Shown piece after piece: positions 8,702-39,532 of a stretch of DNA of 64,000 nt (the first letter of the stretch is position 1; every line of letters begins with the position of its first letter). A program made the translations under genes and the position numbers. This DNA is from a candidate division WS6 bacterium OLB20. GTDB taxonomy: Bacteria > Patescibacteriota > Dojkabacteria > B142 > OLB20. A model generated the notes under the pieces. That model was not told the origin of the DNA, did not search any database, and worked only from the letters and a program-made list of their open reading frames with translations. The DNA is taken from NCBI GenBank assembly GCA_001567355.1, contig JYNZ01000003.1, positions 6,655 through 70,654 on the forward strand. The letters run 5' to 3'.

Positions 8702-11700
8702 TCAGTCAATCCGGAGAGTCAGATTATCACGTTTTGTATCAGGTGTTGAACGCATTCTTCCGGGAAACGGTGCCAGCATCCAGTCCTGCATTGTTTTGAG
8801 GGTTCGCGGATACCCGCCCTTGGCAACCTTGTCGGTTGCAATTCCCAGAAGTTCGGCCAGAATAATTGCTTTGTCGCTATCGGCTGTTTCTCCACTACCT
8901 GTCTGTGTAACAAGTTGGCCTACAGCATCAGCCTCGACCAGTCTGCAAATATTTTTTTTGTACGTCCTGTGGTCAGAATGTCCTCCCATACCAAGGATAT
9001 CTCTGAAAACGATGCGCTCCTCACATGGTCTGTATGTCCTTGTTTCCGTATCAAGACAAAGAGTGCCGGGAACCCGTTCCACACGTGCTCCGGAATCCTC
9101 GTCGTAACTCATGATATAGCCGATACCATAGGTTGGCGGGTTGTGAGCAGGGACTCCTGCAAATGTGGCGCCTTTCATTACCAGCGGACCTACCACAACA
9201 CCGGTTGATCCGTCATCAGCAGTAACGTCTGTCGCCAGTTTTATTGATCCACGGACATCCTTTGTCATCCTGAGACGGTCCCAGATACTGATCAGAGGAA
9301 CAGTGGGCGAGTTGACCTTGAGCGTTCCCTGGATGAAATTGTTACTCAGTTCAAACAGAGTACCGTCGCTGACCAGTCTGTCGGCATCCTCTGTCTCATC
9401 AAGTGCAAGTATGACAGCAATGGTAAGCATCTTGTCACGCCTGCTCATGATGGAGTAAAAGTCTGCGCTCGGGAGCAGATCATTTGCGGCAAGACGGGAC
9501 TGTCCTCTGGCTGTATCCAGGGCAGTGCGGGTCTGTGCCTCCTTGGTGTACAACTCTTCAATCCTTGTCTGCATCCGGGTTGTCTGTTCTGCAGAGAATG
9601 CGGACAGCATACCGGGCTGCTTAAATGAGAACATGTTGAGGACTTCTGTTACAAAGAATCTGCATTCAACAATCTGTGCCGGCCGGCTGGCAGCCTGTTG
9701 TGCAAACGCGTAAGCCTCAGCCGGAACAGTACCTGTCTCTGAACCATCTGCACAATTAAAAATCAGAACCTGCTCACCCCGTCTGACTGCATATGACCTA
9801 GCATCGCGACTGTGGATCCAGACGTTGTTTTCACGATTATGGTACTGGCCGTAAGCCTGAATAAGATCCTCACTCCCAAGCTGTAATCCGCGCGAAAGCA
9901 TCAGCGCTGTAAACTGACGCATCAGCGGATCTTCATCTTCAATGTATTCCACCTGCTGCTGCAGATTGAGTCTCTTGCGGGCAGCGACCCTGCCAAACCA
10001 GGGCTCATCATCTTCTGCACCAATTATTATGCGCCGCACATAGGTTCCTTCGGAACCGATAAAGTCTTTATAGCTGATACTGATATCAATACTGCCGTCA
10101 GCAAAAATCCTGAAGTCCGTTATGCCTGCACCGGTAAATTCAGGTCTCTGCACTTCAGGCTGCTGCAGTGATCTGAATACTCCTTCCAGCTGTGTCTTAA
10201 ACTGCTCCCGTTCGATCTGTACGGCAAATTTTGTCATCAGCATGTCTGCCGTACGGTCAAGGTTTCTGGCGGTATGTTCCCGCCTTGCCGCCCGCTCGAG
10301 CTGAAACAGGGTCGTCTGCAGTGAAGCTATCTGCAGCTGCTTGCGGATTCCATCCCCCGGAGCCACAACCGTCTCACCGTCAACATCCTCAAATGCTGTT
10401 TCACCATTAAGATACCGGTACATAAGTTCCATCCGGACCCCTTCGAGAGATGACTGAGGAAGCCTGCGGATACCGTCCGGGGTTACCTCGCAGTATACTT
10501 CGCGCATTCTCACACCGGCAGGATCTCCAGGGTCAGGCTCTGTAATCCTGCGGACAACAGTCTCACTCGTGACCTGTCCATCACTGTTTAGTTCGCTCCA
10601 TACTGTGTCTCCCGCCAGCAGCCAGGGCATACCTTGTGATTCGCCCGCAACAACCGTACTGTGAATAATACTGTCGGCACCGATCTGCTGACTGTTTTCT
10701 GTAAGCAGTTTTGCGGCATTAATGTATGTCATCACCGGTGACGGAAGTCTGCTGCCATCAGCAGCGGTGACAGTCAGCACTCCATTTTGAGACCTGACAA
10801 GCAGCGCTGGAACTGTAGCATTTACTGAATCGATACTGACGCCGAAGCTGTTGATTGCAGTTGCAAAATCCATCACAGAACTGCGCTGCTCCACTGCAGA
10901 CAGAAACAATCCGTCTCCATTCTGTTGCGGGAGTTCCCGTTTAATGGGATAGTCAGCTGCCAGCGCGGTCATCATCTGCCTGTAGCGGTCTTCTAGCAGC
11001 ATTCTGTCCTGCTCACTCAGCGGATGTGTCATACGTGCTGCGTCGGTGAGCGCCTGGCCGAGAAGATGAATGCCGTAGCGCGTCTGTCCTTTTTCCATCG
11101 TGATGTTATAGGTGCGGAGGAATGCAAGCAGATCCGTCTGTGTCATACCGGACTGACGTCCGACTGTATGAATCCTGCATGCCTGCTCTACACCTGCAAA
11201 TTCCGCCTCGCTGATTGCGTAAAAGCCGTCTCGGTCAGAACCGAATGACTCACGGGTCATAATACCGCTGGATGCAATCACAAGGAGTGCAGAGCGGTCA
11301 GTCGTATGCAGCATTACCTCACGACGGTCCTGAGACTCAATCTCAGCATGTGCGTCAAAATCCATCAGAACATCCGGGTAGACAGCAAGCTGGTTGCCGG
11401 GGAACAGTATCTCCGATCCTGCTTTTTCAGGAAGTCTGCTGACATACAGGGTCCGCTGGTCAGGATATACAATTGCGCCCAGATAGGGCATGCTAACCAG
11501 ATCCGGTCTCGCAGGATCCCCTGCAAGCAGCAGGAGAAGATTTCTGATCTCCTGGGGCTGCGGATTATCAATCAGCTGGAGCCCTTCTGTCCGCGCACGC
11601 GCAAGCAGTGTCTCGTCCCACATAAGCTGTCTGCCAGGCATCGTAATTGTTACTCCGTACTCGTGCACACCGGTATTCCCCCCCGTCTCAGTGAGGCGTG

Positions 11701-12880
11701 GTACAAGTCTGCTGCCTGAAAAAGCAATAGTTTCGCCCCCCTGGGCAAGCGCCGGAACATCATGCAGCGGAACATGCTCGAAACGTTCTTTAACTGCCTG
11801 AACCATCCGCTCAAACTGCTCCTGATCTTCAACATCACCAAATACCGTACGCACCATCTCTTCGGCAAATGCTCTGCGGCCGAGCATCTGTTCGCGCATC
11901 CTGAACCGCTCGTGCATCTCATCAGTCTCTTCCGCTGTCAGTGGTACACTGACCTGGTTCAACCCGCGCTCTGCAAACTGCTCATCAAACAGCGCCTCTC
12001 TGTTGCCATGCTCATCAAACAGCACGGTAATATAACCCCCGGGCTGTTCTGCCTCGCCGCTGACCCAGGCTCGCCGTCCCCGATAGGTTGCACCCTCAGG
12101 GTCAATGAAACCCTGACCGAGCGTGACCGAGATCCTGTTTGTTATTGAGCTGCGTGGGTGCAGGTCGAGAATTTCGTACAGACCCTGCTGCTCATGTACC
12201 TGAGTCCTGCGAAAGGCAAGATCGAAGATGGAATGTTCACCGTCAGACTTGATAAACACAAGCTGACCGGGTGTCTCAGCGCTGAAATGATCTCTGTTGC
12301 TGGTCACCGTTGCCGCGAGGATAGATTCTCCTTCACCGAACCCGAGCCTGCCTGCCAGATACTTTGATACAAATACCAGATCATGACCGGCCGTATTGCC
12401 GATCAGGGTATCAATATCAAGCCGGGTAAGAAGACTGAAGAATTCCTCATCGGGATGCTGTTCGTGTTTCCGCTGCAGACGCTCATAATGGGCATTAAGC
12501 ATATCTGCAACCCGGCCATCATCTACTGCAGGAAACAAGGCTGGCGTAGGTTCACTGACGGTCTGCCACCTGAAGTCTGTGAATGCAGTATTTTCAGGCA
12601 GATCAAGACCGTATTCTGCCTGCAGATCACCTGGCTCCACTTCATTAAACAGCTGCACTTCGCCGTGTGCTGAGGGTCCAAGCCCCGTAAGCAGCATTCC
12701 ATCTTCTGCAGTAAACGAAGCACGATAGTACTTGTATCCGTTGGCTGTATTGATCTGCAGCTGAAGCGTTCTGCCGACCAGCAGACCCTGTGTTACTTCA
12801 ACGGGCAGGCTTAGTTTCTCAGCAGTACTGATAGGAAATCGCTCTTCGTCAGGTTGTCGCAGCGTCTCGTTAAGGACCAC
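8702..12880 (-). CDS. Giant cytoplasmic hypothetical protein (1392 aa)
   Basis: Uninterrupted ORF with no signal peptide, no P-loop and no HExxH. The C-terminal about 150 aa are Cys/His-rich (LCLDTETRTYRPCEE...GMGGHSDH...CRLVEAD). Confidence 0.7.
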   Translation of the reverse strand: MVLNETLRQPDEERFPISTAEKLSLPVEVTQGLLVGRTLQLQINTANGYKYYRASFTAEDGMLLTGLGPSAHGEVQLFNEVEPGDLQAEYGLDLPENTAFTDFRWQTVSEPTPALFPAVDDGRVADMLNAHYERLQRKHEQHPDEEFFSLLTRLDIDTLIGNTAGHDLVFVSKYLAGRLGFGEGESILAATVTSNRDHFSAETPGQLVFIKSDGEHSIFDLAFRRTQVHEQQGLYEILDLHPRSSITNRISVTLGQGFIDPEGATYRGRRAWVSGEAEQPGGYITVLFDEHGNREALFDEQFAERGLNQVSVPLTAEETDEMHERFRMREQMLGRRAFAEEMVRTVFGDVEDQEQFERMVQAVKERFEHVPLHDVPALAQGGETIAFSGSRLVPRLTETGGNTGVHEYGVTITMPGRQLMWDETLLARARTEGLQLIDNPQPQEIRNLLLLLAGDPARPDLVSMPYLGAIVYPDQRTLYVSRLPEKAGSEILFPGNQLAVYPDVLMDFDAHAEIESQDRREVMLHTTDRSALLVIASSGIMTRESFGSDRDGFYAISEAEFAGVEQACRIHTVGRQSGMTQTDLLAFLRTYNITMEKGQTRYGIHLLGQALTDAARMTHPLSEQDRMLLEDRYRQMMTALAADYPIKRELPQQNGDGLFLSAVEQRSSVMDFATAINSFGVSIDSVNATVPALLVRSQNGVLTVTAADGSRLPSPVMTYINAAKLLTENSQQIGADSIIHSTVVAGESQGMPWLLAGDTVWSELNSDGQVTSETVVRRITEPDPGDPAGVRMREVYCEVTPDGIRRLPQSSLEGVRMELMYRYLNGETAFEDVDGETVVAPGDGIRKQLQIASLQTTLFQLERAARREHTARNLDRTADMLMTKFAVQIEREQFKTQLEGVFRSLQQPEVQRPEFTGAGITDFRIFADGSIDISISYKDFIGSEGTYVRRIIIGAEDDEPWFGRVAARKRLNLQQQVEYIEDEDPLMRQFTALMLSRGLQLGSEDLIQAYGQYHNRENNVWIHSRDARSYAVRRGEQVLIFNCADGSETGTVPAEAYAFAQQAASRPAQIVECRFFVTEVLNMFSFKQPGMLSAFSAEQTTRMQTRIEELYTKEAQTRTALDTARGQSRLAANDLLPSADFYSIMSRRDKMLTIAVILALDETEDADRLVSDGTLFELSNNFIQGTLKVNSPTVPLISIWDRLRMTKDVRGSIKLATDVTADDGSTGVVVGPLVMKGATFAGVPAHNPPTYGIGYIMSYDEDSGARVERVPGTLCLDTETRTYRPCEERIVFRDILGMGGHSDHRTYKKNICRLVEADAVGQLVTQTGSGETADSDKAIILAELLGIATDKVAKGGYPRTLKTMQDWMLAPFPGRMRSTPDTKRDNLTLRID

Positions 12881-22558: not shown

Positions 22559-25500
22559 CTATATCGGTACAGGAAAATCCGAGTACCATGCGTCTTTCAT
22601 ATTACCCGGGTCGTCAAATTCCAGTCTCAGTATCCTCTGATAGACATCCTGCACCTCCTGGGCAAACGCTTCAATCTCGTCAGCACTGAAACTGAAGCGG
22701 AAGCTGACAAACCTGCCGTCACTGCCCGGGTCCACATACTTGATTACAGCCTCGTTAACCTTAAGTTTCAAAGGACTGTTTTCAAGGAGCAGCTGATAAA
22801 ACTTAAGCTGGTCGACATAGTCACCGCTGCGCTTCCTGATACTGATTTTGCCGGTAAGACTGGTAGGATTGCCTGTCTTGTAGTCTATTACTGTGCCCGA
22901 GGTCTTTGACTGATCAGCATAATCAAATCTGTCTATCTTGCCTGTAAGCGGAACATCATTGACCTTCAGTTTGTGCTCTCTGAAGCTGTATTCAACCATA
23001 GAAGATCCTGTGATACCGGATACCTCGGACTCAAAAAAGGGTCGCAGACGCTTTTCACCTGTCGAAAGCAGATACCCGGTCTCATGCTCGTCAAGCCTGC
23101 CGTTTCTGATGACATCTGTAAATATATCCACAACATCCTGCCAGGTTGGCACTTCACCTGAACGTGCCGTCAGAACCGCCTGCTTCATCGCGGCGTGGAC
23201 TGCATTCCCAAACACAAGGTAAGGACTGGGTTCTGACGGAAGATTGAGGATACGTTCAAAAAAGAATTTACGCGGCGAGTTTTTGTAGGCACTGAAATCA
23301 GTCGGGCTGAGACGGTATCCGGCCAGGAATTCCCTTATCAGTTCACGGTTGCTGTCAGTAATTAAAGCCGGTGCCGGACCAAGCGTTTCTGCCAGAATCT
23401 CTGTAACAGCCTGCTCTGTATTGCTGACTGTGACTTCTGCAGTTGTTTCATCGGGGAGCTCTTCGACAAACACTGATCTCGACTGGCTTTTTCCATTACC
23501 GTCCTGCTCATAGCGACTGATCGTAATCGAATGCCGGGCTCGCGTAAGAGCGACAAAAAAGAGACGGCGTTCCTCTTCGAGTGTATCCAGGAGTTCCTGC
23601 GTTTGTACAACACCAAGCGGAATGTTCATGCGGTTGGAACCGATCTCTTTGTCCCAGACGTTTTTTAACTGCTTTGATGATGAATACATGGTCATACTGA
23701 TGTCCCTTGGAACTGTGTGCGGTCGTAATTTCGACAGCATCATCGCTTGCGCGGATTGTCTTTTCGGACAGTTCAATGTTGTATTCATCATACAGCTGCA
23801 GATCACGGATAAAGTCTTCCAGCATGTACGTGCTGTCGGATTTTTCTGACAGTGTTACAAGTTCGCTGCGCAGCCGGTAGATACGCAGCATCGTGTGAAG
23901 CGAATTATCTTTACCCAGCAGGGTCGTGATGATACCGCCCGAATCCTGCAGGATTGTGTCCATTGCCTCGAGTGCCGGCATTTCCAGACTGATTCTGCTC
24001 CAGTTGTTGATGCGTTCGGTGACAGTTCGGATCCCGTCAGGATCTGCAAGCTGCACCTCAGAAAGCTGATCACTGCTGATAACATCCCAGAGTCCGGTGC
24101 GATTGTGTCTGCAATAGCGCTGCAGCGCGACCAGATCGCGTGCGCCTGCAGCAAACGGTTCCCAGGCAAGCGTCTGAAACAGCAGCTCATCACGGGAAGG
24201 ATCGGCAAGCAGGGTAAGAAGGCCGATGAATCGCTGTATAAACGGGTTGTTCAGAACGCTTTCTCCCTTATCAAGCCGGTAGGGGATACCACGCTGCGCA
24301 AGGACCGAAGCAATCTCATCAGCATGCCTGTTTTTGCGGACTATGACAGCTATGTCTTCCGCCTGTGCACCACCTGCGATACGCTTCTCAATTGCGTCTG
24401 CCACACCATGCAGTTCTTCAAGTTCACTGGCATATGTCTGCAGCAGGAGCGGTGCAGGTGTCCTGTCAGCATTTGCTGCTATCAGCGTCTTCTCGATCGA
24501 TCCGCCGAAGTAATTGACGGCACGGTTGCTGTTTCTTGCGATCAGAGCGTGAGCAGCATCAAGTATCGTCTGCTGGCTGCGGTAGTTGCGGATAAGAGGA
24601 ATCACTTCAGCACCCGGGAACTGACGGTCAAAATAAATGACATTTTCCAGCGATGCTCCCTGAAACCTGAAAACCGACTGGTCATCGTCTCCGACAGCAA
24701 ACACATTCGGGCGTTCAAAAAACGATGCCAGCAGGGCTACAGTTTCGTTCTGTGCGGTATTTGTATCCTGGTACTCATCAACAAGTATGTACTGATATCG
24801 TTCCTGATAGATCATCAGCAGTTCGCTGTCAGAACGGAAGCGCTCGATGACAAAATTGATCATGTCGTTGTAATCGTAGCGGTTGCTCTGCCGCAGCCCT
24901 GATTCGTAACCGTTATAGACCTGCAGCAGCGATCGCTGTTTGGCTAATGCCGTCGGGGACACATGTTTTTCGTAGAGTTTACGGATGGTTGCCTTAGCAG
25001 GAGCGCGGTGTTTCTTCCAGATCTTCTCTTCGACATCGAGCTCAAGCAGCTGTGTCAGAATCTTTACAATCTCTACAGAGATCGGGTACTCGGCAAAGTC
25101 GCTGCCCGACAGTTCTGAGCGCAGATCTTCAAAGTGCTGACGTTTGAGCGAACTCGCATGAGTACCGATAAATGTCTGCAGTGACTCTCCATGCAGTGCC
25201 GAAAACTTTGATTCCATTTCAATGCCTGCCACAAGCACGTCTGGTGTTATCTGCTCTCGTTTGAGATCAGAAACAGTGCTGAGAAAGTTTTTAACGTGCA
25301 GATACGGATTACTGACGGGTTTGTATGGATCCCCGTGGGGTAGTGTATCGATAATACCGCGCAGCATGCTTACCTGCTCAAGCTCACTGATAAGTTCGGC
25401 GTCACTGCCCAGTTGAGCAAACCGCTCGGAGTGTTCAGAAATAACGTTCTGACAGAATGCATGAAAGGTAAATACAGCAACACGGTTGGCATCGGGACCG

Positions 25501-25772
25501 ATTATCTCCGACAGACGGCTGCGCATTTCGGTAACAGCTGCTTCAGTAAATGTGAGACAGAGAATATTACTGGCTGAGAGTTGTGTCTGTCTGAGGATAT
25601 TAGCAATACGCATCGCCAGAAGTTCGGTCTTACCGGTACCGGGACCTGCCAGCACAAGCACAGGCCCTTCGATCAGGTCGACAGCTTTTTTCTGTTCGGG
25701 GTTAAGCTCCTCATAGCGGGAGCTGTAGCGTTCCTCAAACGCGTTTGACATCAGCGTGAGCTGTTCAGGCAC
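22559..25772 (-). CDS. UvrD/PcrA-type helicase fused to a C-terminal RecB-family PD-(D/E)xK nuclease (AddA-like), split by a frameshift near 23651-23656
   Basis: Helicase motifs (GPGTGKTELLAM...VALTRAR) then a nuclease motif (GKIDRFDY...VIDYKTG). The two ORFs overlap at 23508-23806 and rejoin across a T6/A6 run. Confidence 0.75.
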
Positions 25773-29448: not shown

Positions 29449-30079
29449 GAAAGTATTTACCTGTGCAGCGGTTGCAGCATTGCTGCTTTCTGTTTTACTC
29501 CTGCCAGTCCTAATCATATCAGGCCGGTCTGCTTATTTTGCAGGAGCGTTTAGCAGACACAGTCAGGCCATAACAGCTATGGGGACTGATCCTGAGCGCG
29601 ATTTCGCATACTTTGAGCAGGTTCTGGCGGTCATGCACGGATACGGGAGCGATCTTGATCCCGCATACTATTCGGTAGAGGATCAGCTGCATATGCGCGA
29701 TGTAGCCGAACTAACCGCATCAGCAAAACTTGTAACGGCAACCTCCGTGCTGCTGATCTGTATCTATTTTGTGCGTCTGCCGTCAGGAAAAAGACTGCAG
29801 CAACTCAGGCGTATATCCTCTGTTGCACTTGGTATTACAATTGCATCCGCAGCGGCGGTCGTTCTGCTGTTCGAACCGCTGTTTATTATGTTCCATAAGG
29901 TGTTTTTCAGCACAAATACCTTCTGGCAGCTTGATCCCGCCACATCCAGACTGATCAGGTTTTTGCCTCAGGATCTGTTTGCCGAACTTGTACTCATCTC
30001 TGTAACGCTTTCTGCACTAATACTATGCGCGATGTTTGTCTTTGCTATAATCTTGGAACGATGGCAGAAAAAACAGTAG
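29417..30079 (+). CDS. Integral membrane protein
   Basis: 220-aa ORF with four or five predicted TM helices. Confidence 0.4.
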   Translation: MQKNVLPGAVEKVFTCAAVAALLLSVLLLPVLIISGRSAYFAGAFSRHSQAITAMGTDPERDFAYFEQVLAVMHGYGSDLDPAYYSVEDQLHMRDVAELTASAKLVTATSVLLICIYFVRLPSGKRLQQLRRISSVALGITIASAAAVVLLFEPLFIMFHKVFFSTNTFWQLDPATSRLIRFLPQDLFAELVLISVTLSALILCAMFVFAIILERWQKKQ

Positions 30080-31210
30080 CTCTCACAGGCGGGCATCTGA
30101 CGCCTGCTCTTGCAGTAGCTGAGGAGCTTGCAAAACAGAATGTCAGGGTAATCTGGTTCGGGGTAAAGCATTCCCAGACAGCAGACAGCCGCTTCAGCGC
30201 GGAATACGAGGCTGTGACAGCAAGGGGAATTACTTTTATCCCGTTTACAGCCGGTAAGCTGTGGCGAAAATGGACCGCAGCAACGTTTTTTTAAAGGTCT
30301 AAAGAATCTGTTACTTATCCCTGTCGGCTTTGTCTTTGCGGTCTATCTTATGCTGCGCCACAGACCCGATACACTGCTTTCTTTTGGAGGATACACAGCA
30401 CTGCCGCTGGTCGTGGCAGCACGGCTCACCGGGATCAGGACAGCGACTCATGAGCAGACGACTGTCATTGGCCTTGCCAACCGCATCATCGGAAAACTTT
30501 CTCACAGGGTCTACCTCTCATGGCCGCAGTCTGCAGCATTCTCTGATCCAGCCAAAACTCTTGTTACCGGGAATCCGGTCCGCGAGGAGGTACGTTCGAC
30601 TCATACTGACGTATTTAAGCTGCAGGACTCTGCCCCTGTTATATACATCACCGGGGGCAATCAGGGGGCAAACACCATCAACTGGCGGCTGCGGGACACA
30701 ATTGCCGAAATTCTGGCTGTTGCCCAGGTGATTCATCAGACAGGCTCATCAGAACTGACAAAAGATTATGAACGTGCACTGCAGGTCCGCGAACAGCTTC
30801 CGGATCATCTGCAAAAGCGGTATATCATCAGGGACAGAATCTTCGGTAAGGAGATAGGGGAGGCGTTTGCCAAAGCAGATCTGGTCGTGAGCAGAGCAGG
30901 GGCAAATACAATCACAGAATTGCTGCTGCTTGGTAAACCGGCACTGCTGATCCCAATTCCATGGAGTTCTCACAATGAACAGCAGAAGAATGCTGAACTG
31001 GTTGCAGAAACCGGTCTGGCAACTATACTCACACAGTATGACGCCATGCCTCCGCAGGAACTGAGGGATGCGATCCTGACAGCACTTGGGACAGTTGAGC
31101 AGGGGAAGGCGTTTAACGGCAGCTCACTGGCAGAAGCGCAGACTCAGGCCTCAGCCCTTGTAAAGGCAGACGCTGCAGCAGTAATAACAGCTGATCTCCT
31201 GTTACTCTGA
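30061..31210 (+). CDS. murG: Undecaprenyldiphospho-muramoylpentapeptide beta-N-acetylglucosaminyltransferase, with a frameshift in a T7 run at 30286-30292
   Basis: The N-terminal ALTGGHLTPALAV and C-terminal GANTITELL...IPWSSHNEQQKNA halves are in different frames. Confidence 0.85.
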
Positions 31211-33148: not shown

Positions 33149-34139
33149 TTGCCATGCCGGGTTATAGTCTATGTTGCATATTACTTTACTGCTGTGCTTC
33201 TGTTAGATCTCCTATTACTGTTTTTGTTTCTGGCTATCCTGATCAAGTCTGCTGATGTATTGCAGGATGCTTTTGTGACAATTGCACACAAACTCCGTCT
33301 GAATCTGTTTCTGATCGGATTTGCAGTCCTCAGTTTTGCGTCATCGCTGCCAGAGATATCTGTAGCTGCAAGCGCATCGTTAGATAATGTTCCCGGACTG
33401 TCGATCGGTAATCTTCTCGGGGCAACAATTGTTCTGCTTACACTGGTAATCGGGTTAAACGCAATCAGGCACCGTGAACTGCCATTCAAGGGCGGGTATT
33501 CGTTCGGCTTTCTTACCATGTCTATGGCAGTAATCGGTACAATGGTTCTTACGCTTGCTGATCAGCATCTGAGCAGACTTGATGGCATTGTGCTGATTTC
33601 ACTCTATGTTTTTTCAACATTTCTGATTGTCCAGAGAGTCAGCAGGAAAAAGGAGCGTAAAAGCAGAAAGAAGATTCATCCATTCAAGCTGCTGCTGTCA
33701 GCGGTCATTGGGACAGCCGGACTGATCATTGCCTCTCAGCTGCTGGTTGATAAAGCTGTTGTTATTGCCAGCCAGCTTGGGGTGCCAAATGCTCTGATTG
33801 GACTTGGAATGCTTGGTCTGGGAACAAATCTGCCCGAAATTACCATGCTGGTCCGGAGCAACAGCGCAGAAAAGGAAAAAACTTGCAGTCGGCAACTTTA
33901 TCGGGAGCGCGTCAATGAACGTGCCGACGATGGGTTTGCTGGCAATCCTTAATCCGCACACGATTAACAGCTTTACAGCCCTGGTTCCGGCGATGATCAC
34001 AATTGCAATAACCCTGCTTGTGTTTTTGCGGTTTGCATATACCGGTCAGGCCATTACGCGCAAAGAAGGGTATGCACTGGTGGCAATCTATGTCATCTGG
34101 CTGACGGCGGAGATGTTTGTTTCGGTGTATCAGTACTAG
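33149..34139 (+). CDS. CaCA family Na+/Ca2+ antiporter, split by a frameshift at the A6 run 33876-33881
   Basis: Both alpha-repeat motifs (GNLLGATIV..., GNFIGSASMNV) lie in two overlapping ORFs. Confidence 0.75.
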
Positions 34140-34170
34140 GTCAGCAAGACCGACAACAAAGCGGGGGGGG

Positions 34171-34260
34171 GTAATTCCCAGTAGTGGTAAAATTACCGCA
34201 CAAGGGAATATGCGGAGCATGACGTTTTTATTCCCCGTAATTCCCCGTAGTGTAAAATAC
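34171..34260 (+). CRISPR. Mini CRISPR-like array: degenerate partial repeat (34171-34196), 27-nt spacer (34197-34223), full 37-nt repeat (34224-34260)
   Basis: The full repeat is GTTTTTATTCCCCGTAATTCCCCGTAGTGTAAAATAC. The partial repeat is GTAATTCCCAGTAGTGGTAAAATTAC and contains an extended -10 (TGGTAAAAT). Nucleotides 1-22 of the full repeat can pair with the 5' end of the small RNA at 38757-38857. Confidence 0.45.
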
Positions 34261-34272
34261 CACATCCGAAAA

Positions 34273-34292
34273 CCCTCCAGAGGAGGGTTTTT
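34273..34292. terminator. Palindromic, apparently bidirectional terminator shared by cas2 (minus) and the mini-array transcript (plus)
   Basis: ccctcc-agag-gaggg is flanked by A-runs on one side and T-runs on the other. Confidence 0.65.
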
Positions 34293-34314
34293 ACGTGTTC
34301 TCGAGCTGGATAAA

Positions 34315-34639
34315 TCAGAACATCAACACCTGTCCCGTTGGTACTTTTAACTCCTGCAATGTTTTTGTACCTACCAGTATCTTCATGTTTTCAAACTGAC
34401 GCTCGGTCACAACCATCGCTCGTACCGAGCCATCATCGGGCAGATTAGACTCGAGTCGCTGCATATGCTTTTTTTACGCCATCGAGTCCGTTACACAGTC
34501 TGCAATATACAGAGAACTGAAGCATGTCATACCCGTCTTTTTCGAGGAACTTGTGAAACCGGCTGTATGCACGTCTGGCATCTTTATCGGATACTGGCAG
34601 GTCAAACAGCACGAGGATTCTCATAAACTTGTTATGCAT
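34315..34639 (-). CDS. cas2: CRISPR-associated endoribonuclease Cas2, with a frameshift in a 7-nt homopolymer at 34469-34475
   Basis: MRILVLFDLP...LQFSVY in the annotated frame. After the run, the -1 frame continues LPDDGSVRAMVVTERQFENMKILVG to a stop at about 34315. Confidence 0.75.
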
Positions 34640-35537
34640 AAGTATGTTGCTTTTGTGCCACAATAACCGGCAGCTTCAGGCTTCCGGGGCTGTTATTTTC
34701 GACTGCTGTTACCAGAGATTTCACCATTTCTTCAATTGCATTTTGCGTACTCATGCGCTTATCGTCCTGCGTTACCTGAATACCAAGTGATCTGACCAAA
34801 GAGGCTTTTACCGCCGGATTTAATGTTTCATCTAGCTCCGGATGAGATGCTACAACAAGATCGACAACCGGCCGGAATGGTTCGATCAGGTCGTCTGCAA
34901 GGTTAAAATTGTTGTACTCATTTTTATGATGGATACCGATACTTGGAATAAAACCATATGCAGCAAGCGAGCGGGCAATTGCGCCCCTGATGACAGCGTA
35001 ACCGTAGTTTAATGCTGCATTGGTTGTATCGTCTGCAAACCTGGCAAACCCTTCAGGAAACAACCTCTGAAAGTAAAAGCGAGCAGCATAGGACTCAAGG
35101 TTACCTGCATCTCCCGACTTTACCCTGGCTGCAGTCATCATCAGCTGGTCGGCACCACTGGAGCCAAGGAGTTTTAATACACGAGCCTGATTACGGATCT
35201 TTTCGCGGACCAACAGCTGCCATAGTCGCTTTTTAAAGACTGCCTTCATCGCGAGTTGCTGCTGCATCCTTTTACGCTGACGGACATGACTCTGAAAAGG
35301 GAGGGCAATACCATGCGGCAGATGCTGGTCATTGCAGAAGTAGACTGCAACATCATTGTGCATACACTCGCTCATAAATGGAGCACTGAGGGTTACCTGA
35401 GGATGCTCGATGATAACTGTTGCGATATCCTCCAGAGGCACAGCAACGTCGTTACCATCAGCGTACGAAAGTATCATGTTACCTGCGCGTGTGTGCAGGT
35501 GGGTGGGATTGGTTATGTAGACGGTGCGGTACGCCAC
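34632..35537 (-). CDS. cas1: CRISPR-associated endonuclease Cas1 (type II)
   Basis: Co-linear similarity to Neisseria Cas1 (VPLEDIATVIIE..., ALNYGYAVIRGAIARSL, NLADDLIEPFRPVVD). Confidence 0.9.
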   Translation of the reverse strand: MAYRTVYITNPTHLHTRAGNMILSYADGNDVAVPLEDIATVIIEHPQVTLSAPFMSECMHNDVAVYFCNDQHLPHGIALPFQSHVRQRKRMQQQLAMKAVFKKRLWQLLVREKIRNQARVLKLLGSSGADQLMMTAARVKSGDAGNLESYAARFYFQRLFPEGFARFADDTTNAALNYGYAVIRGAIARSLAAYGFIPSIGIHHKNEYNNFNLADDLIEPFRPVVDLVVASHPELDETLNPAVKASLVRSLGIQVTQDDKRMSTQNAIEEMVKSLVTAVENNSPGSLKLPVIVAQKQHTYA

Positions 35538-38500
35538 GGGACTTTCCTCTCTTTCTCTCTGGAAAGCGCGTACTTCCTCCCAAGGGGATCAATGTAATAT
35601 TTAGTTACTTTCATCGACTTTATTCCAATACTTCTTTTACTCCACGAGTTATCATGTCCTCGGACTTCAACTGAGGCTGTTGCTCTGTCTGCTTTTACAT
35701 AGTACCCCTCAATAATTTTATCTTTTCCAGTAAGGCAGACGTAATCATCAGGATAGATGGACAACACGAATGTATCTTCCCGCATTTCTGGCCATTCCAA
35801 GTAATCAGCACCGGATTTACTCGCTTTTCGTGGCAACAAGTTACCTGCAAGTTCTCCTATATAAATTGGCACAAAGTAAGTTCCCTTATCCTCGAAGATA
35901 TCTATCCTTATCATATTATCCTGTGCAGCGACTCCATCATTCTTCAGTTGTACAAAACTGCTCGCAGGTCCATCAATAATCTTCACCCGTTTAACTTCAT
36001 TCTGCTGTCTGCCTTCTCTAGCTGGTTTAAGTACAGGCTCTTTAAATGCGGCTTCTGCATCCCACATAAATGCCTCGAGCCTGTCTTTTAACACCTTTAC
36101 CAGCTGAGGGTCATCGCCATAGATGAGATTCTGGTCGAAGTGTTTCTGTTCAAGTTTAGTTATCGGAATACGCTTGACCATCACTTTTCCTCGCTCTGCA
36201 TCTTTTACAGACATGACTGTCTCTTTGTGCAGAGCACCTGTCAGTTTGCGCTCCGCCTTCCGTGACACAAGTATCGGCCGGATCTGATCCAGAATGTCTT
36301 TGTATCTGTCATGCAACTCTGCGTAACTCTGCAGATCATTATGGAGTGTGGAGTCAGCAAAAACTCTAATTGCAAGATCTTTTGCAAAATACGGCCACGG
36401 CTCAGGGAAGTAGTCTTTAGCTTTCTGCGTATGCTCCTCCTGTTTCTTGAAAAATTCTGTTATACGTTGTTGCATTGAACTATCTGCGATAGCAACAATC
36501 ACAGCATCAAGCGCGTGATGTCTGTTTGATTCATCACGGTTTTTCAAATGGTTTACTCCCAGGTACCTACGCAGCATTGCTGTAACCCGTCCCTGAAAAG
36601 CAAAAATCCTTCTCTTAAATGGAGCTGGCTTAAATTCCAGGTGCTGCTCAAGAAACGACCGCAAGTAGCGCGAAATGTAACGGGTGTCGTTCATATCACG
36701 CTCCATAAAAGTCTTGATGTCTCGCTTGTCAAAATCCGTTGTCATTAAACGTTCTTTTTTATAAAGCGGCATATTTGACGTTTGCCACCAGGTCATTAGC
36801 TTTTTCCATAACTCTTCGTTTGTCCCAAGATACTCGTATACAGTCTTGCTGCCTTTATTCTGGTTCTGAGAACTGAGAACAAGCACCTTATTAAAGTATG
36901 AATCATCAAGACTCCTGCTGTAGGGAAGTATGTGATCAATTTCTGTATAAGTGTCATCACTGAAGAGCTTATCTGCCGGTATTGGCATTAATGAGTAAGC
37001 ACAATGATAGGCCTGCTCCGTCCAAAGTTTGTACTTTAAGATATCTTTGCCCTTTGGATCAGACAGGCCGAATTCGTTTTTTAATAGTCTAACTATCCTT
37101 TCATTCTCCTGCCTGTTATCTGCCTGCTGCTTTTCTATAGCACGGCGTTCTTCATGCGTTTTTGACACATCCCGTGCAAACTCGATATGTACCTTGAGAG
37201 GGGAGCCATACTCTTTGATAATGGCATTTACAACAACTCTGGTTTGAGCAAGTGCACGGATTACATTGAAATTTGTAAGGTTGTCAGTATCAATAGGGGG
37301 TAGGTATTTTTGTTGCAGACCGTTTTTTATCCTGATCTCTTCAGGAATTGCCTTAGTAACCGCATCGGAGTAAACCATCCCACTCTTTAATTCCGGGACT
37401 ATTAAATTGAGGGCCTTTTTGGACAGATGTAGAAACCCTTTCAGTTCCGCTATTGCTGATAGTTCCTTAAGCGCGTCATCCTTTATATCAGGGAACAGAC
37501 GTGTGAGTTCTGAGATAATAGCGTCCTCATCCTTATTGAATACCAGCACCTCGACAAGTGAGTCAGCTAGCTCAGTATCTTGATTGATTCTCTCAAGAAG
37601 TACGGGGTCAGTCTTTTTCAATGCCTTTTGAATTGCAGCGACTCCTTTCAGATTAACGAAGAATCCCTGTTTTTCTGAGTCATCTGCGACCTGTTCCCAA
37701 GTCACATTTTTATCTGCTTTCTTTGGTTTTCGGTAGTTAACATTTTTAAACGAAGTATCGTAGGGGAGTGAAAGAATTTTACGGATTCTATTGTGTTTAA
37801 CTGCTCCCTTTTGCAGTGCCTCTGCGACTATTAGCTCACGCTGGTGATCTGACAGCATGACATCCTCATATGACCCTTTCTGTCGCAATCTTAGATTATT
37901 AAGGTTAGAGTAGAGAATGAACAGTTCTGCAGTTCGAGTATTCTTTGCAAGCCGTGGTTCTTCGGCAAAGAACTCGCAGTTACCGATCTTTTCTTCAAGC
38001 GCTGATCGGTTCAGGAATGGTCGCTGAAAAAACATTTCGCCGAGTAGCCGTTCCTGTATATCCTCTGTCAGTCTTTCGTTTCCCAGCTCGCGCTGTCTCT
38101 TAAGTATCAGCCTTGCTTCGTCCTCAAGCATTTCTCGAGCAGTTACACCGATATACGATCCGGAGGAATTGCGTTTACGTTCTTTATACTTATCATCAAG
38201 AAGAAGCATCTCACCAACGGTTCTGTACCCTTTCTGTTTCATCAGGTTTCGGTTCTCAGCAACTGCTTCCAGTACCTTGCCTTCTTCTTTCTCGATTTCA
38301 CTTCTTCGATTAGATTTATACCCCCTGCGTTTAGCAATATGAAGGAGTGCCCGTGCAAGTTCGATACCAGACAACTTCCTTTCCAATGCTTCGAACCGAA
38401 GCTGATATGGGGTTAGATCCTTATTCGACAGCTGTGAGACCAAATCGTAGTACTCAGACCTGGAGGGAATAAGTCCTGAATTCTCAAGAATAGCTAGTGT

Positions 38501-38743
38501 GTGATTTAATCGTTGCCTGCGCCTGTTGAGCCTTCTTCTTGTGGATCTTGCTTCACGACGTTTTTAAGTTTGGCGATGCACCCGTCTTGGGGTCGCCAAC
38601 TTTATTCCAAACCCTCACGCCAAGGTCGTAAATCCGTTTAGGGGTAGTTCTGCCGAGTTTCTCATCTACATCCACCTCCATAACGCTCCACCCAGTGATG
38701 CTACCCCGATATCCAGTCCCAGTATGTAGTTAATATCTTTCAC
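35513..38743 (-). CDS. cas9: Type II-C Cas9 (about 1076 aa, GTG start) with two compensating frameshifts near its 5' end
   Basis: RuvC-I INYILGLDIGVAS, bridge helix ALLHIAKRRGY, HNH DHILPYSRSLDDSYFNKVLV and RuvC-III HHALDAVIVA are all present, with close similarity to NmeCas9. Residues GWSVMEVDVDEKLGRTTPKRIYDLGVRVWNKVGDPKTG are encoded in the -1 frame between a CCC run (38691-38693) and a T5 run (38561-38565). Confidence 0.9.
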
Positions 38744-38756
38744 GAATTCAATTCAT

Positions 38757-38857
38757 AAAAAAGTTGCCCGCAAGCCTGCACAAGCGTGCAGGCTCCGGGC
38801 AAGGGTTACGTAACTCCCAAGCGGGAGCTACTTATTTCTATAACCCGTAATTCCCTG
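38757..38857 (-). ncRNA. Candidate tracrRNA (or cas9 5'-leader RNA): promoter, anti-repeat-like 5' end, nexus-like hairpin, terminator
   Basis: An extended -10 TTGATATAAT (38863-38872, minus strand) precedes 5'-(A)GGGAAUUACGGGUUAUAGAAAUAAG. Then a CUCCC-GCUU-GGGAG hairpin, a 9-bp GC hairpin (AGCCUGCAC/GUGCAGGCU) nested in GCCCG/CGGGC, and U6 (38757-38762). The cas9 GTG start is 14 nt downstream. Confidence 0.5.
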
Positions 38858-38862
38858 GCTGG

Positions 38863-38872
38863 ATTATATCAA
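38863..38872 (-). promoter_or_regulatory. Extended -10 promoter (TGnTATAAT) driving the candidate tracrRNA and the cas9 leader
   Basis: The minus strand reads TTGATATAAT, an exact TGnTATAAT match. Confidence 0.5.
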
Positions 38873-39532
38873 AGCTAATCATATATAGTCTACCCGTGAT
38901 TATTCAGAGGGTCGTAGGATGTAAGATTGTATTTATCTGCAGTTCTATATATTCAAGAATGCTGAGGCTGTTTAGAGCTATGGTTATGCCTCGGGCACAA
39001 GACAGCCCGATGCTGCTCTCCAGGATTTTACACCTTTAGCGTTCTCACCATCAGATCGCAGACTCTGATACCCCGAATCCGGGATCCGACCTCAGGTTCA
39101 GATCTCATCTACAGACGCTAAAGTTCAATACTGGCAGAACGACTGTGCAAGTGGGCTCTACTACTGCTTTGAACAAACATACCCTCTCTGAGCGCAGGGT
39201 TCCCCGATGAGACTCTCCAGTGAGCTTATCCGTGAATTAGCCACCAGAATGTTTTATAACGATGTTCGCAATTTAATCAGTGTTTGTTGATTCTGATTCA
39301 TATTCCAATTCGTCTTGCGAGACTTGTCTAAACGCTGCATTTCGCGGCTATGGTCATTGCTCAAACAAAGCTATAGAGTCTCCTTGCACTGCAAGGGATA
39401 CACAACTAATCCAAGGTAAGATCTGTAGGTAAGGTGTGTCCCTGACGTCCGACCTTACTCGCTGTTTCGGTCTTTCTTTCCTTTTCTAACCCCCCTCATT
39501 TGTTTTAAGATAAGAACATCACACAAACAGAC

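What the first reader, a model, noticed from the sequence alone, without database searches (positions are those of the whole stretch)
34171..34292. One-spacer mini CRISPR array with repeat-embedded promoters, convergent to the cas operon
Immediately downstream of cas2 there is no conventional array on the cas strand. Instead there are two units on the opposite (+) strand. Unit A is a degenerate partial repeat whose 3' end forms a correctly spaced extended -10 (TGGTAAAAT, 34185-34193). Unit B is a 37-nt repeat that starts GTTTTTATT, as type II repeats do. A transcript starting near 34200 would read about 24 nt of spacer (ACAAGGGAATATGCGGAGCATGAC), then repeat B, then the palindromic terminator at 34273-34292. 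This matches the Neisseria-style design of repeat-internal promoters giving processing-independent crRNAs with 24-nt spacers. Repeat B nucleotides 1-22 can pair with the 5' end of the RNA upstream of cas9 as 12 bp, a 2x2 loop, then 8 bp. A hard-wired single guide suggests a regulatory or self-targeting crRNA rather than adaptive immunity. The spacer also partly resembles the repeat core (GGGAAT.T.CGG), so an eroded array remnant is the alternative.
Basis: partly seen in the sequence, partly recalled or inferred. Interest (0 to 1): 0.8.

Follow-up and report, generated by a model that had tools for sequence, protein, structure and literature searches.

The report
One-spacer type II-C CRISPR array
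This is a real but very small CRISPR memory bank (one stored spacer) next to a Cas9 gene set in an uncultured candidate-phylum WS6 bacterium; it is built exactly like the known Neisseria and Campylobacter arrays, so it is an ordinary member of a known kind, not a new regulatory device.

Summary
Downstream of cas2, on the opposite strand, lie a 5'-truncated repeat (34171-34193, ending in the extended -10 TGGTAAAAT), a 30-nt spacer (34194-34223), one full repeat (34224-34258) and a two-way terminator (34270-34293). The units are 66 nt apart, the canonical 36+30 period.

A tracrRNA upstream of cas9 (38855-38757, minus strand) pairs with the full repeat at -27.8 kcal/mol. No shuffle out of 2000 matched this.

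Relatives settle what it is. A Cas9 locus 40% identical carries at least 15 copies of nearly the same repeat (31/36), also convergent to cas2. The closest relative (59%) has a single repeat, and its tracrRNA shows compensatory changes. Other relatives carry 2 to 32 spacers.

The design (promoter inside each repeat, transcript starting inside the spacer) is already published for Campylobacter jejuni and Neisseria meningitidis. Short arrays there are known states of array birth or contraction.

The genome is the Ion Torrent MAG "candidate division WS6 bacterium OLB20". The frameshifts in cas9 and cas2 sit at homopolymers, as do those in murG and other genes, so they are probably sequencing artefacts.

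No protospacer was found and nothing supports a hard-wired regulatory guide. One oddity remains: the spacer is unusually complementary to its own repeat (p about 0.01).

The parts
38863..38892 (-). tracrRNA promoter (TAGACT, 18 nt, TATAAT, with TG before the -10)
   Evidence: Promoter scan, 10 of 12 matches with TG. The same TGATATAAT is conserved in the closest relative.
38757..38855 (-). tracrRNA. The antirepeat GGGAATTACGGGTTATAGAAAT comes first, then a stem-loop, then a terminator hairpin and T-run.
   Evidence: Duplex with repeat B at -27.8 kcal/mol; 0 of 2000 shuffles reach it. Terminator found by the scan. Of 24 consensus pairs with the relative, 8 show compensatory double changes. The antirepeat C-to-T change matches a repeat G-to-A change in the relative.
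35516..38743 (-). cas9 (type II-C). In the assembly it is interrupted by two single-base frameshifts, at G3 38691-38693 and A5 38561-38565.
   Evidence: TIGR01865 match, E=1e-190. After two single-base fixes it reads as one 1076-aa ORF with RuvC-I, II and III and HNH motifs, 60.6% identical over its full length to the intact relative.
34632..35537 (-). cas1 (type II, NMENI class), intact, 301 aa
   Evidence: TIGR03639 match, E=1e-85.
34318..34639 (-). cas2, interrupted in the assembly by one frameshift at an A7 run (34469-34475 on the + strand)
   Evidence: tblastn with the relative's Cas2 shows two frames. Homopolymer context shown.
34270..34293 (.). Two-way intrinsic terminator between the array and cas2
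   Evidence: The hairpin forms in the minimum-energy fold of the predicted transcript. An equivalent hairpin sits at the same place in relatives.
34259..34269 (+). Leader-like junction (ACCACATCCGA) next to the cas2-proximal repeat
   Evidence: ACCAC..CCG is conserved with the 59%-identity relative. Its role as an integration leader is inferred, not shown.
34224..34258 (+). Full repeat (unit B): GTTTTTATTCCCCGTAATTCCCCGTAGTGTAAAAT
   Evidence: It matches 31 of 36 positions of the repeat in a relative's array of at least 15 repeats.
34194..34223 (+). The single 30-nt spacer, TACCGCACAAGGGAATATGCGGAGCATGAC. The expected transcribed guide is 34200-34223.
   Evidence: The 66-nt period gives 36+30. 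The spacer is unique in the window. No protospacer was found.
34171..34193 (+). Unit A, the 3' part of the cas-distal terminal repeat. It carries the extended -10 TGGTAAAAT (34185-34193). Its 5' half is replaced by a G9 run (34163-34171).
   Evidence: It is 21/22 identical to the relative's repeat. The ending GGTAAAAT is the promoter motif described for C. jejuni repeats (PMC3656092).

Best explanation
This is a genuine, minimal type II-C CRISPR array. It belongs to a complete tracrRNA-cas9-cas1-cas2 locus in the chromosome of the candidate-phylum WS6 (Dojkabacteria, CPR) bacterium OLB20.

Proposed mechanism:
1. The cas-distal repeat (unit A) keeps only its 3' part, which holds an extended -10 promoter.
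2. Transcription starts about 7 nt downstream of that promoter, near 34200.
3. The transcript carries the last 24 nt of the 30-nt spacer, then the full repeat (unit B).
4. It ends at the terminator shared with the convergent cas operon.
5. Repeat nt 1-22 pair with the 5' end of the tracrRNA. The duplex loads into Cas9 to give one crRNA for DNA interference.

The array holds one spacer because it is at the low end of normal array turnover, either contraction or early growth from a single repeat. It was not hard-wired that way.

Shown here: the sequence elements, their spacing, the pairing, and conservation and covariation with relatives. Inferred: transcription, the start site, loading into Cas9, the target, and that the cas frameshifts are sequencing errors.
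For: - The locus is complete and of the II-C type: Cas9, Cas1 (NMENI class) and Cas2 only. Cas9 aligns over its full length to solved Cas9 structures at E=1e-184.
- The units are 66 nt apart, the canonical 36+30 period.
- A relative's locus (Cas9 40% identical) has at least 15 repeats, GTTTTTATTCCCCTAAATTCCCCGTTGTGGTATAAT, 31/36 identical to unit B, with 30-nt spacers. It is convergent to cas2 with a terminator in between.
- Other relatives share this layout with about 32, about 10 and 2 spacers.
- In two of those arrays (L001 and L015) the cas-distal repeat is degenerate at its 5' end while the rest is intact.
- The closest relative (59%) keeps tracrRNA, repeat, junction motif and terminator. 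It shows a compensatory repeat/antirepeat change and 8 compensatory pairs in the tracrRNA stems.
- The repeat:antirepeat duplex is -27.8 kcal/mol, beyond all 2000 shuffles.
- Unit A ends in GGTAAAAT, the motif shown by dRNA-seq to drive crRNA transcription from each C. jejuni repeat (PMC3656092). Neisseria II-C crRNAs start at the 6th nt of each spacer (PMC12477760).
- cas9 needs only two single-base homopolymer corrections to read as an intact 1076-aa gene with all catalytic motifs.
- The genome was sequenced on Ion Torrent, and the authors report persistent frameshifts (PMC4821891). murG, an addA-like gene and the antiporter gene are also split; murG and the antiporter break at homopolymer runs, and homopolymers lie in the addA overlap, where the shift was not localised.
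- A k=31 Logan assembly runs through the array unbranched and is 100% identical to the window.
Against: - No protospacer was found in the window, IMG/VR, JGI metagenomes, GenBank phages or PLSDB plasmids. Foreign origin of the spacer is therefore not shown.
- cas9 and cas2 are frameshifted in the only available sequence. The identical Logan contigs may come from the same reads, so real inactivation is not excluded.
- Unit B's own -10 is out of register for the TG motif (GTGTAAAAT).
- The spacer is unusually complementary to its own repeat: -19.2 kcal/mol, reached by 0.6% of random 30-mers and 1.2% of shuffles. Real spacers of a relative give -7 to -13. This is not expected for a captured protospacer.
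- Only 64 kb of a genome of about 1.4 Mb could be searched for a second array.
Confidence: 0.75

Rival explanations
1. Decaying remnant. The cas9 and cas2 frameshifts are real, the system is dead, and the two units are the last pieces of an array being lost.
For: There are two frameshifts in cas9 and one in cas2. Unit A has lost its 5' half, and unit B differs from the idealised repeat by one base. Two Logan assemblies show the same gene breaks. CRISPR-Cas is rare in CPR lineages including WS6, which suggests selection against it (PMC4742961).
Against: The cas9, cas2, murG and antiporter breaks sit at homopolymers in an Ion Torrent assembly whose authors report persistent frameshifts. murG is broken the same way; I would expect it to be essential, which rests on my own knowledge. 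Apart from the two single-base shifts, cas9 has no stop codon or lesion and keeps every catalytic motif. cas1, the tracrRNA and its promoter and terminator, and repeat:antirepeat pairing are all intact. 5'-degenerate cas-distal repeats also occur in intact arrays.
Confidence: 0.13
2. Hard-wired regulatory or self-targeting guide. The single crRNA is kept to direct Cas9 to an endogenous target, as described for scaRNA and long tracrRNA forms in other type II systems.
For: There is a single guide. The closest relative also has a minimal locus, with one repeat. The spacer is atypical in being complementary to the repeat. No foreign protospacer was found.
Against: No partial match to the guide or its PAM-proximal 14 nt exists elsewhere in the window, cas9 and tracrRNA promoter regions included. 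The spacer is not conserved in the closest relative, which has no spacer at all. Relatives with the same repeat family have ordinary variable arrays. Short arrays are an expected, transient state in II-C systems (PMC12477760).
Confidence: 0.04
3. Assembly artefact. The true array has more spacers and was collapsed to one repeat-spacer unit by the assembler.
For: Arrays are often collapsed or broken in metagenome assemblies. In the closest relative, some contigs end inside the repeat, as expected where several repeat copies exist.
Against: Two assemblers give the same sequence: the original one and Logan at k=31. The Logan contig of 54 kb passes through unit B without a branch. Units A and B share no 31-mer, so they cannot have been merged by collapse.
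Confidence: 0.06

Closest known systems
Campylobacter jejuni type II-C 'minimal' CRISPR (Dugar et al. 2013, PMC3656092)
   Same: The locus has cas9-cas1-cas2 only. Repeats are 36 nt and end in GGTAAAAT, which acts as an extended -10, so each crRNA starts inside its spacer. The repeat pairs with a tracrRNA. Arrays are short and vary in integrity between strains.
   Different: The repeat sequence differs apart from the 5' GTTTT and the 3' GGTAAAAT. Here the tracrRNA lies upstream of cas9 and its antirepeat covers only repeat nt 1-22. The host is an uncultured CPR bacterium. Transcription here is predicted, not measured.
Neisseria meningitidis type II-C CRISPR-Cas9 (Zhang et al. 2013, from my own knowledge; Zhou et al. 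2025, PMC12477760)
   Same: Promoters are embedded in the repeats and transcripts start at about the 6th nt of a 30-nt spacer. Single-repeat and one-to-three-spacer arrays are recognised states of array birth or contraction that give little crRNA. From my own knowledge, not checked here: the tracrRNA lies upstream of cas9 and the array downstream of cas2 is transcribed towards it.
   Different: Cas9 is only about 33-35% identical to Neisseria-type Cas9. The natural array has one spacer rather than about 25. No functional data exist.
Arrays of related uncultured-bacterium Cas9 loci (L011 = GCA_015657915.1 contig NPIE01000331.1; L013 = GCA_964479575.1; L015 = JGI 3300032154)
   Same: All use the 36+30 period, are convergent to cas2, have a terminator between array and cas2, and carry an extended -10 at the repeat 3' end. 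The L011 repeat is 31/36 identical to unit B. L015 has only two spacers and a 5'-degenerate cas-distal repeat.
   Different: They carry 2 to at least 14 spacers. The L011 antirepeat spans the whole repeat.
scaRNA and long-form tracrRNA regulatory guides of type II systems (Francisella and S. pyogenes from my own knowledge; N. meningitidis scaRNA, PMC13431127)
   Same: These are small RNAs encoded beside cas9 that use repeat-like sequence and can act on endogenous targets.
   Different: Those RNAs are not spacer-plus-repeat units flanked by repeats at the canonical period. No endogenous target was found here.

Membership tests
Type II-C CRISPR-Cas (Neisseria/Campylobacter design) | cas operon of cas9, cas1 and cas2 only, with no csn2 or cas4 | tested here: met
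   NCBIfam hits to Cas9 (TIGR01865), type II Cas1 (TIGR03639) and Cas2 (TIGR01573). The neighbours are dnaE and a Na/Ca antiporter gene.
Type II-C CRISPR-Cas (Neisseria/Campylobacter design) | Cas9 of the compact II-C kind (about 1000-1100 aa) | tested here: met
   The reconstructed protein is 1076 aa. The intact 59% relative aligns end to end with solved Cas9 chains of 1055-1095 aa at E=1e-165 to 1e-184. I recall those entries as GeoCas9 and NmeCas9; the tool lists them only as Cas9.
Type II-C CRISPR-Cas (Neisseria/Campylobacter design) | tracrRNA with an antirepeat complementary to the repeat, followed by stem-loops and a terminator | tested here: met
   Covariation with the relative. No Rfam family reached its threshold.
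Type II-C CRISPR-Cas (Neisseria/Campylobacter design) | Array of 36-nt repeats and 30-nt spacers | tested here: met
   The units are 66 nt apart. This is the minimum case: one full repeat, one 3' partial repeat and one spacer. The same period occurs in relatives.
Type II-C CRISPR-Cas (Neisseria/Campylobacter design) | [quoted passage not shown] | tested here: inconclusive
   The motif TGGTAAAAT is present in unit A, identical to the C. jejuni motif. In unit B the TG is out of register. Transcription cannot be tested with these tools.
Type II-C CRISPR-Cas (Neisseria/Campylobacter design) | Array downstream of cas2 and transcribed towards it | tested here: met
   Repeat orientation follows from the antirepeat pairing and the promoter motif. 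Relatives have the same arrangement.
Type II-C CRISPR-Cas (Neisseria/Campylobacter design) | Spacer derived from foreign DNA flanked by a PAM | tested here: inconclusive
   No match in the window, IMG/VR, JGI metagenomes, GenBank phages or plasmids. Viruses of WS6 bacteria are probably not in these collections.
Type II-C CRISPR-Cas (Neisseria/Campylobacter design) | Intact cas genes | tested here: inconclusive
   cas1 is intact. cas9 (two) and cas2 (one) have single-base homopolymer frameshifts in an Ion Torrent assembly.
Regulatory type II guide (scaRNA-like or self-targeting crRNA) | Complementarity of the guide to an endogenous site, typically a promoter or 5' UTR, with a PAM | tested here: not met
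   There is no second match to the 30-mer (up to 3 mismatches) or the 14-nt PAM-proximal part (up to 2 mismatches) in 64 kb. The rest of the genome could not be searched.
Regulatory type II guide (scaRNA-like or self-targeting crRNA) | Conservation of the guide sequence across related loci | tested here: not met
   The closest relative has no spacer at this position.
Mini-arrays or solitary repeat units of mobile elements | Located in a virus or plasmid, away from a cognate cas operon | tested here: not met
   The array lies 57 nt (34261-34317) from cas2 in a chromosomal context (ftsW, murG, dnaE, uvrB). The repeat is absent from IMG/VR.

The most novel reading that the evidence does not exclude
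In this group of CPR-like bacteria, Cas9 loci may be kept long-term with zero or one spacer. Three cases were seen: OLB20 with one spacer, its closest relative with a lone repeat, and L012 with one or two units. The OLB20 'spacer', which mimics the antirepeat and can fold back on its own repeat, may then not be an immune memory. It could instead be a built-in RNA that competes with the tracrRNA for the repeat, tuning how much Cas9 is loaded or left in the apo state. That would be a non-immune or self-regulating use of a minimal array.
Probability: 0.05. Interest if true: 0.6.

Novelty: new member of a known kind. Interest (0 to 1): 0.22.

Why it matters
There are three modest reasons.

- It documents a complete type II-C Cas9 locus, with tracrRNA and repeat defined, in a WS6 (Dojkabacteria) genome. 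CRISPR-Cas is rare in this lineage (PMC4742961).
- With its relatives, it gives natural examples of the single-repeat and one- or two-spacer states that recent Neisseria work treats as array birth or contraction (PMC12477760).
- The Cas9, tracrRNA and repeat set is defined well enough to be tested as a guide-RNA scaffold.

It does not reveal a new mechanism.

Tried and rejected
- **Second array in the window.** Searched with exact and 3-mismatch patterns and with blastn-short. None found.
- **Protospacer search.** Tried the 30-mer in the window, the 20-mer in IMG/VR, the 22-mer in JGI metagenomes, and blastn against GenBank phages and PLSDB plasmids. Only chance-level hits came back, with E of 5-8.
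- **Repeat search in IMG/VR and JGI metagenomes.** A pattern covering both OLB20 and its relative gave no hits, so this lineage is absent from those collections.
- **Cas1 search of GTDB species genomes.** It returned only relatives at 45% identity or less and not OLB20 itself.
- **Rfam.** No family hit for the tracrRNA at gathering thresholds.
- **Spacer copied from the tracrRNA antirepeat?** The shared part is GGGAAT plus a few bases, and the PAM-proximal half does not match. I rejected this as a targeting relation and kept it as an unexplained complementarity.
- **Palindrome inside the spacer (34196-34215), flagged as a minus-strand terminator.** Its self-fold energy is unremarkable: 20% of random 30-mers do as well. 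I rejected it as a feature.
- **Literature.** The Zhang et al. 2013 Neisseria paper could not be retrieved. That comparison rests on later papers and my own knowledge.

Full report
**1. What is in the sequence**

On the + strand of 34150-34300 the order is as follows:
- CAACAAAGC
- a run of nine G (34163-34171)
- TAATTCCCAGTAGTGGTAAAAT, ending at 34193 (unit A)
- TACCGCACAAGGGAATATGCGGAGCATGAC (34194-34223)
- GTTTTTATTCCCCGTAATTCCCCGTAGTGTAAAAT (34224-34258, unit B)
- ACCACATCCGA
- the hairpin AAAACCCTCC-AGAG-GAGGGTTTTT (34270-34293)

The repeat finder pairs 34171-34191 with 34237-34257, exactly 66 nt apart. An idealised 36-nt repeat hits only unit B (29/29), unit A (22/23, repeat nt 14-36) and the complement of the tracrRNA antirepeat in the whole 64 kb.

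**2. The locus around it**

The minus strand carries cas9 (38743 to 35516), cas1 (35537 to 34632) and cas2 (34639 to 34318). They match the NCBIfam models for Cas9, type II Cas1 and Cas2.

Upstream of cas9 lies a promoter: TAGACT, 18 nt, TATAAT, preceded by TG (38892 to 38863). About 7 nt after it comes GGGAATTACGGGTTATAGAAAT..., followed by a stem-loop, a terminator hairpin and a T-run ending at 38757.

The 5' 22 nt of this RNA pair with repeat nt 1-22 as 12 bp, a 2x2 loop and 8 bp, at -27.8 kcal/mol. Shuffled repeats average -9.1 and none of 2000 reaches the observed value. Scanning the window in 40-nt pieces, unit B is the best partner apart from the antirepeat's own complement. This RNA is the tracrRNA, so the crRNA strand is the + strand, convergent to cas2.

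**3. Source and quality of the sequence**

The Cas9 fragment is 100% identical to a protein named "candidate division WS6 bacterium OLB20". That MAG comes from the Olburgen anammox reactor study. The study sequenced on Ion Torrent PGM and states that draft genomes had to be corrected for persistent frameshifts (PMC4821891).

Several genes in the window are split:
- cas9 is broken twice, at a G3 and an A5 run.
- cas2 is broken once, at an A7 run.
- The Na/Ca antiporter gene is broken at A4/A6.
- murG is broken at a T7 run.
- An addA-like gene is also split. A6 and T6 runs lie in the overlap of its two ORFs, but the shift was not localised.

Adding one G and removing one A gives cas9 as a single 1076-aa ORF. 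It has the RuvC-I, II and III and HNH motifs and is 60.6% identical end to end to an intact relative. I therefore regard the frameshifts as probable sequencing artefacts, though I cannot prove it.

Logan contigs from SRR29904083 and SRR29904084 show the same gene breaks. The one whose DNA could be read (SRR29904084, 12.9 kb) is 100% identical to the window. They may derive from the same reads.

The same caution applies to the G9 run and to the single missing G that puts unit B's -10 out of register (GTGTAAAAT against GTGGTAAAAT in unit A).

**4. Relatives**

A Cas1 search of GTDB genomes, together with Cas9 homologues and their contigs, gave eight informative loci.

| Locus | Cas9 identity to OLB20 | Array downstream of cas2 |
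|---|---|---|
| L011 (GCA_015657915.1) | 40% | at least 15 repeats, 66-nt period, opposite strand, terminator before cas2; repeat GTTTTTATTCCCCTAAATTCCCCGTTGTGGTATAAT is 31/36 identical to unit B and ends in a perfect extended -10 |
| L013 | 39% | about 10 repeats, same design |
| L001 | (Cas1 45%) | about 32 repeats, same design; cas-distal repeat degenerate at its 5' end only |
| L003 | (Cas1 32%) | about 18 repeats, 66-nt period; the repeat reads GTTTTA... on both strands, so its orientation relative to cas is ambiguous |
| L015 | 36% | three repeats and two spacers; cas-distal repeat degenerate at its 5' end only; next to an IS21-type element |
| L012 | 39% | one full repeat, perhaps one degenerate unit |
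| L005-L010 (closest relative) | 59% | intact cas9-cas1-cas2, then one repeat on the opposite strand |

In the closest relative the single repeat is GGGCTTTATTCCCCATAATTCCCAGTAGTGGTACAAT, followed by ACCAC and a terminator. Some contigs from other samples stop inside that repeat, which suggests more copies there.

Its tracrRNA is conserved, with 8 of 24 consensus pairs changed on both sides. The repeat G-to-A change is matched by an antirepeat C-to-T change.

Unit A is 21/22 identical to that relative's repeat. Its left flank (CGACAACAAAG) resembles the relative's left flank (CGTCAACACAG). Unit A is therefore the old, cas-distal terminal repeat with its 5' half lost.

**5. Mechanism**

The design is known. 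In C. jejuni each 36-nt repeat ends in GGTAAAAT, an extended -10, and crRNAs are primary transcripts that start inside the spacer (PMC3656092). In N. meningitidis II-C they start at the 6th nt of each spacer (PMC12477760).

Applied here, the -10 at 34188-34193 places the start at about 34200. That gives a 24-nt guide, then the repeat, then the terminator.

In such arrays the first repeat in the direction of transcription has no spacer upstream. Only its promoter part matters. This explains why unit A, and the cas-distal repeats of L001 and L015, can lose their 5' ends.

New spacers would be added at the cas2-proximal end, next to the conserved ACCAC junction. This step is inferred, not shown. 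The Neisseria paper reports acquisition at the leader end, but I could not verify from the text which side the leader lies on.

Single-repeat and one-to-three-spacer arrays are described there as natural states of array birth, contraction or recombination. They yield little crRNA and stimulate acquisition.

**6. What is not supported**

Nothing indicates a hard-wired regulatory or self-targeting guide.
- The window contains no second site.
- The spacer is not conserved in the closest relative.
- Relatives have ordinary arrays.

The target is also unknown. No protospacer turned up in IMG/VR, JGI metagenomes, GenBank phages or plasmids, which is unsurprising for a CPR host.

**7. Unexplained**

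The spacer can pair with its own repeat (GGGAAU.AUGCG with CGUAAUUCCC) at -19.2 kcal/mol. Only 0.6% of random window 30-mers and 1.2% of shuffled spacers reach this. Thirteen spacers of L011 score -7.3 to -13.4 against their repeat. The test was made after the resemblance had been noticed, so chance remains likely. In a co-fold the tracrRNA duplex still wins.

**8. Verdict**

The functional speculation is unsupported. This is a new member of a known kind, of low to moderate interest. What interest it has comes from the CPR host and from being a natural minimal-array state.

Noticed in passing
window 30025-31210 (murG), 22559-25772 (addA-like helicase-nuclease), 33149-34139 (Na/Ca antiporter): Each gene is split into two overlapping ORFs. 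murG and the antiporter gene break at T7 and A4/A6 runs. A6 and T6 runs lie in the addA overlap, but that shift was not localised. This is the same kind of break as in cas9 and cas2. The MAG was sequenced on Ion Torrent, so these are probably uncorrected sequencing errors rather than pseudogenes.
   Followed up: partly
window 34194-34223 against 34224-34258: The single spacer is unusually complementary to its own repeat. It resembles the antirepeat: -19.2 kcal/mol, about the top 1% of controls. The cause is unknown.
   Followed up: partly
window 34163-34171: A run of nine G is the longest G or C homopolymer in the window. It sits exactly where the 5' half of the terminal repeat should be. Its true length is uncertain in Ion Torrent data.
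   Followed up: no
L005 12430-12498 and L006 8150-8216; ends of L007 and L010: The closest relative's Cas9 locus has one lone repeat and no spacer in several samples. Contigs from other samples end inside that repeat, which hints at populations with and without spacers.
   Followed up: partly
window 34259-34269; L005 12455-12465: The motif ACCAC..CCG directly after the cas2-proximal repeat is conserved between two loci whose Cas9 proteins are only 59% identical. It may be the leader or integration anchor.
   Followed up: no
L015 9250-9450 and 9546-11773: A related II-C locus has a two-spacer array directly next to an IS21-type transposase/IstB pair. The insertion may have truncated the array.
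   Followed up: no
window 2717-6892 (+) and 8702-12880 (-): There are two very large ORFs of 1391 and 1392 aa. The first has a bacterial TSP3 repeat and carboxypeptidase-regulatory-like domains. The second has no Pfam hit at all. They may be surface proteins of this CPR bacterium.
   Followed up: no
L012 4860-4950 and 9370-9440: In this more distant relative the antirepeat covers the whole repeat, including its promoter end. In OLB20 and its closest relative the tracrRNA starts at repeat-complement position 22, so the antirepeat has been shortened in this sub-lineage.
   Followed up: no
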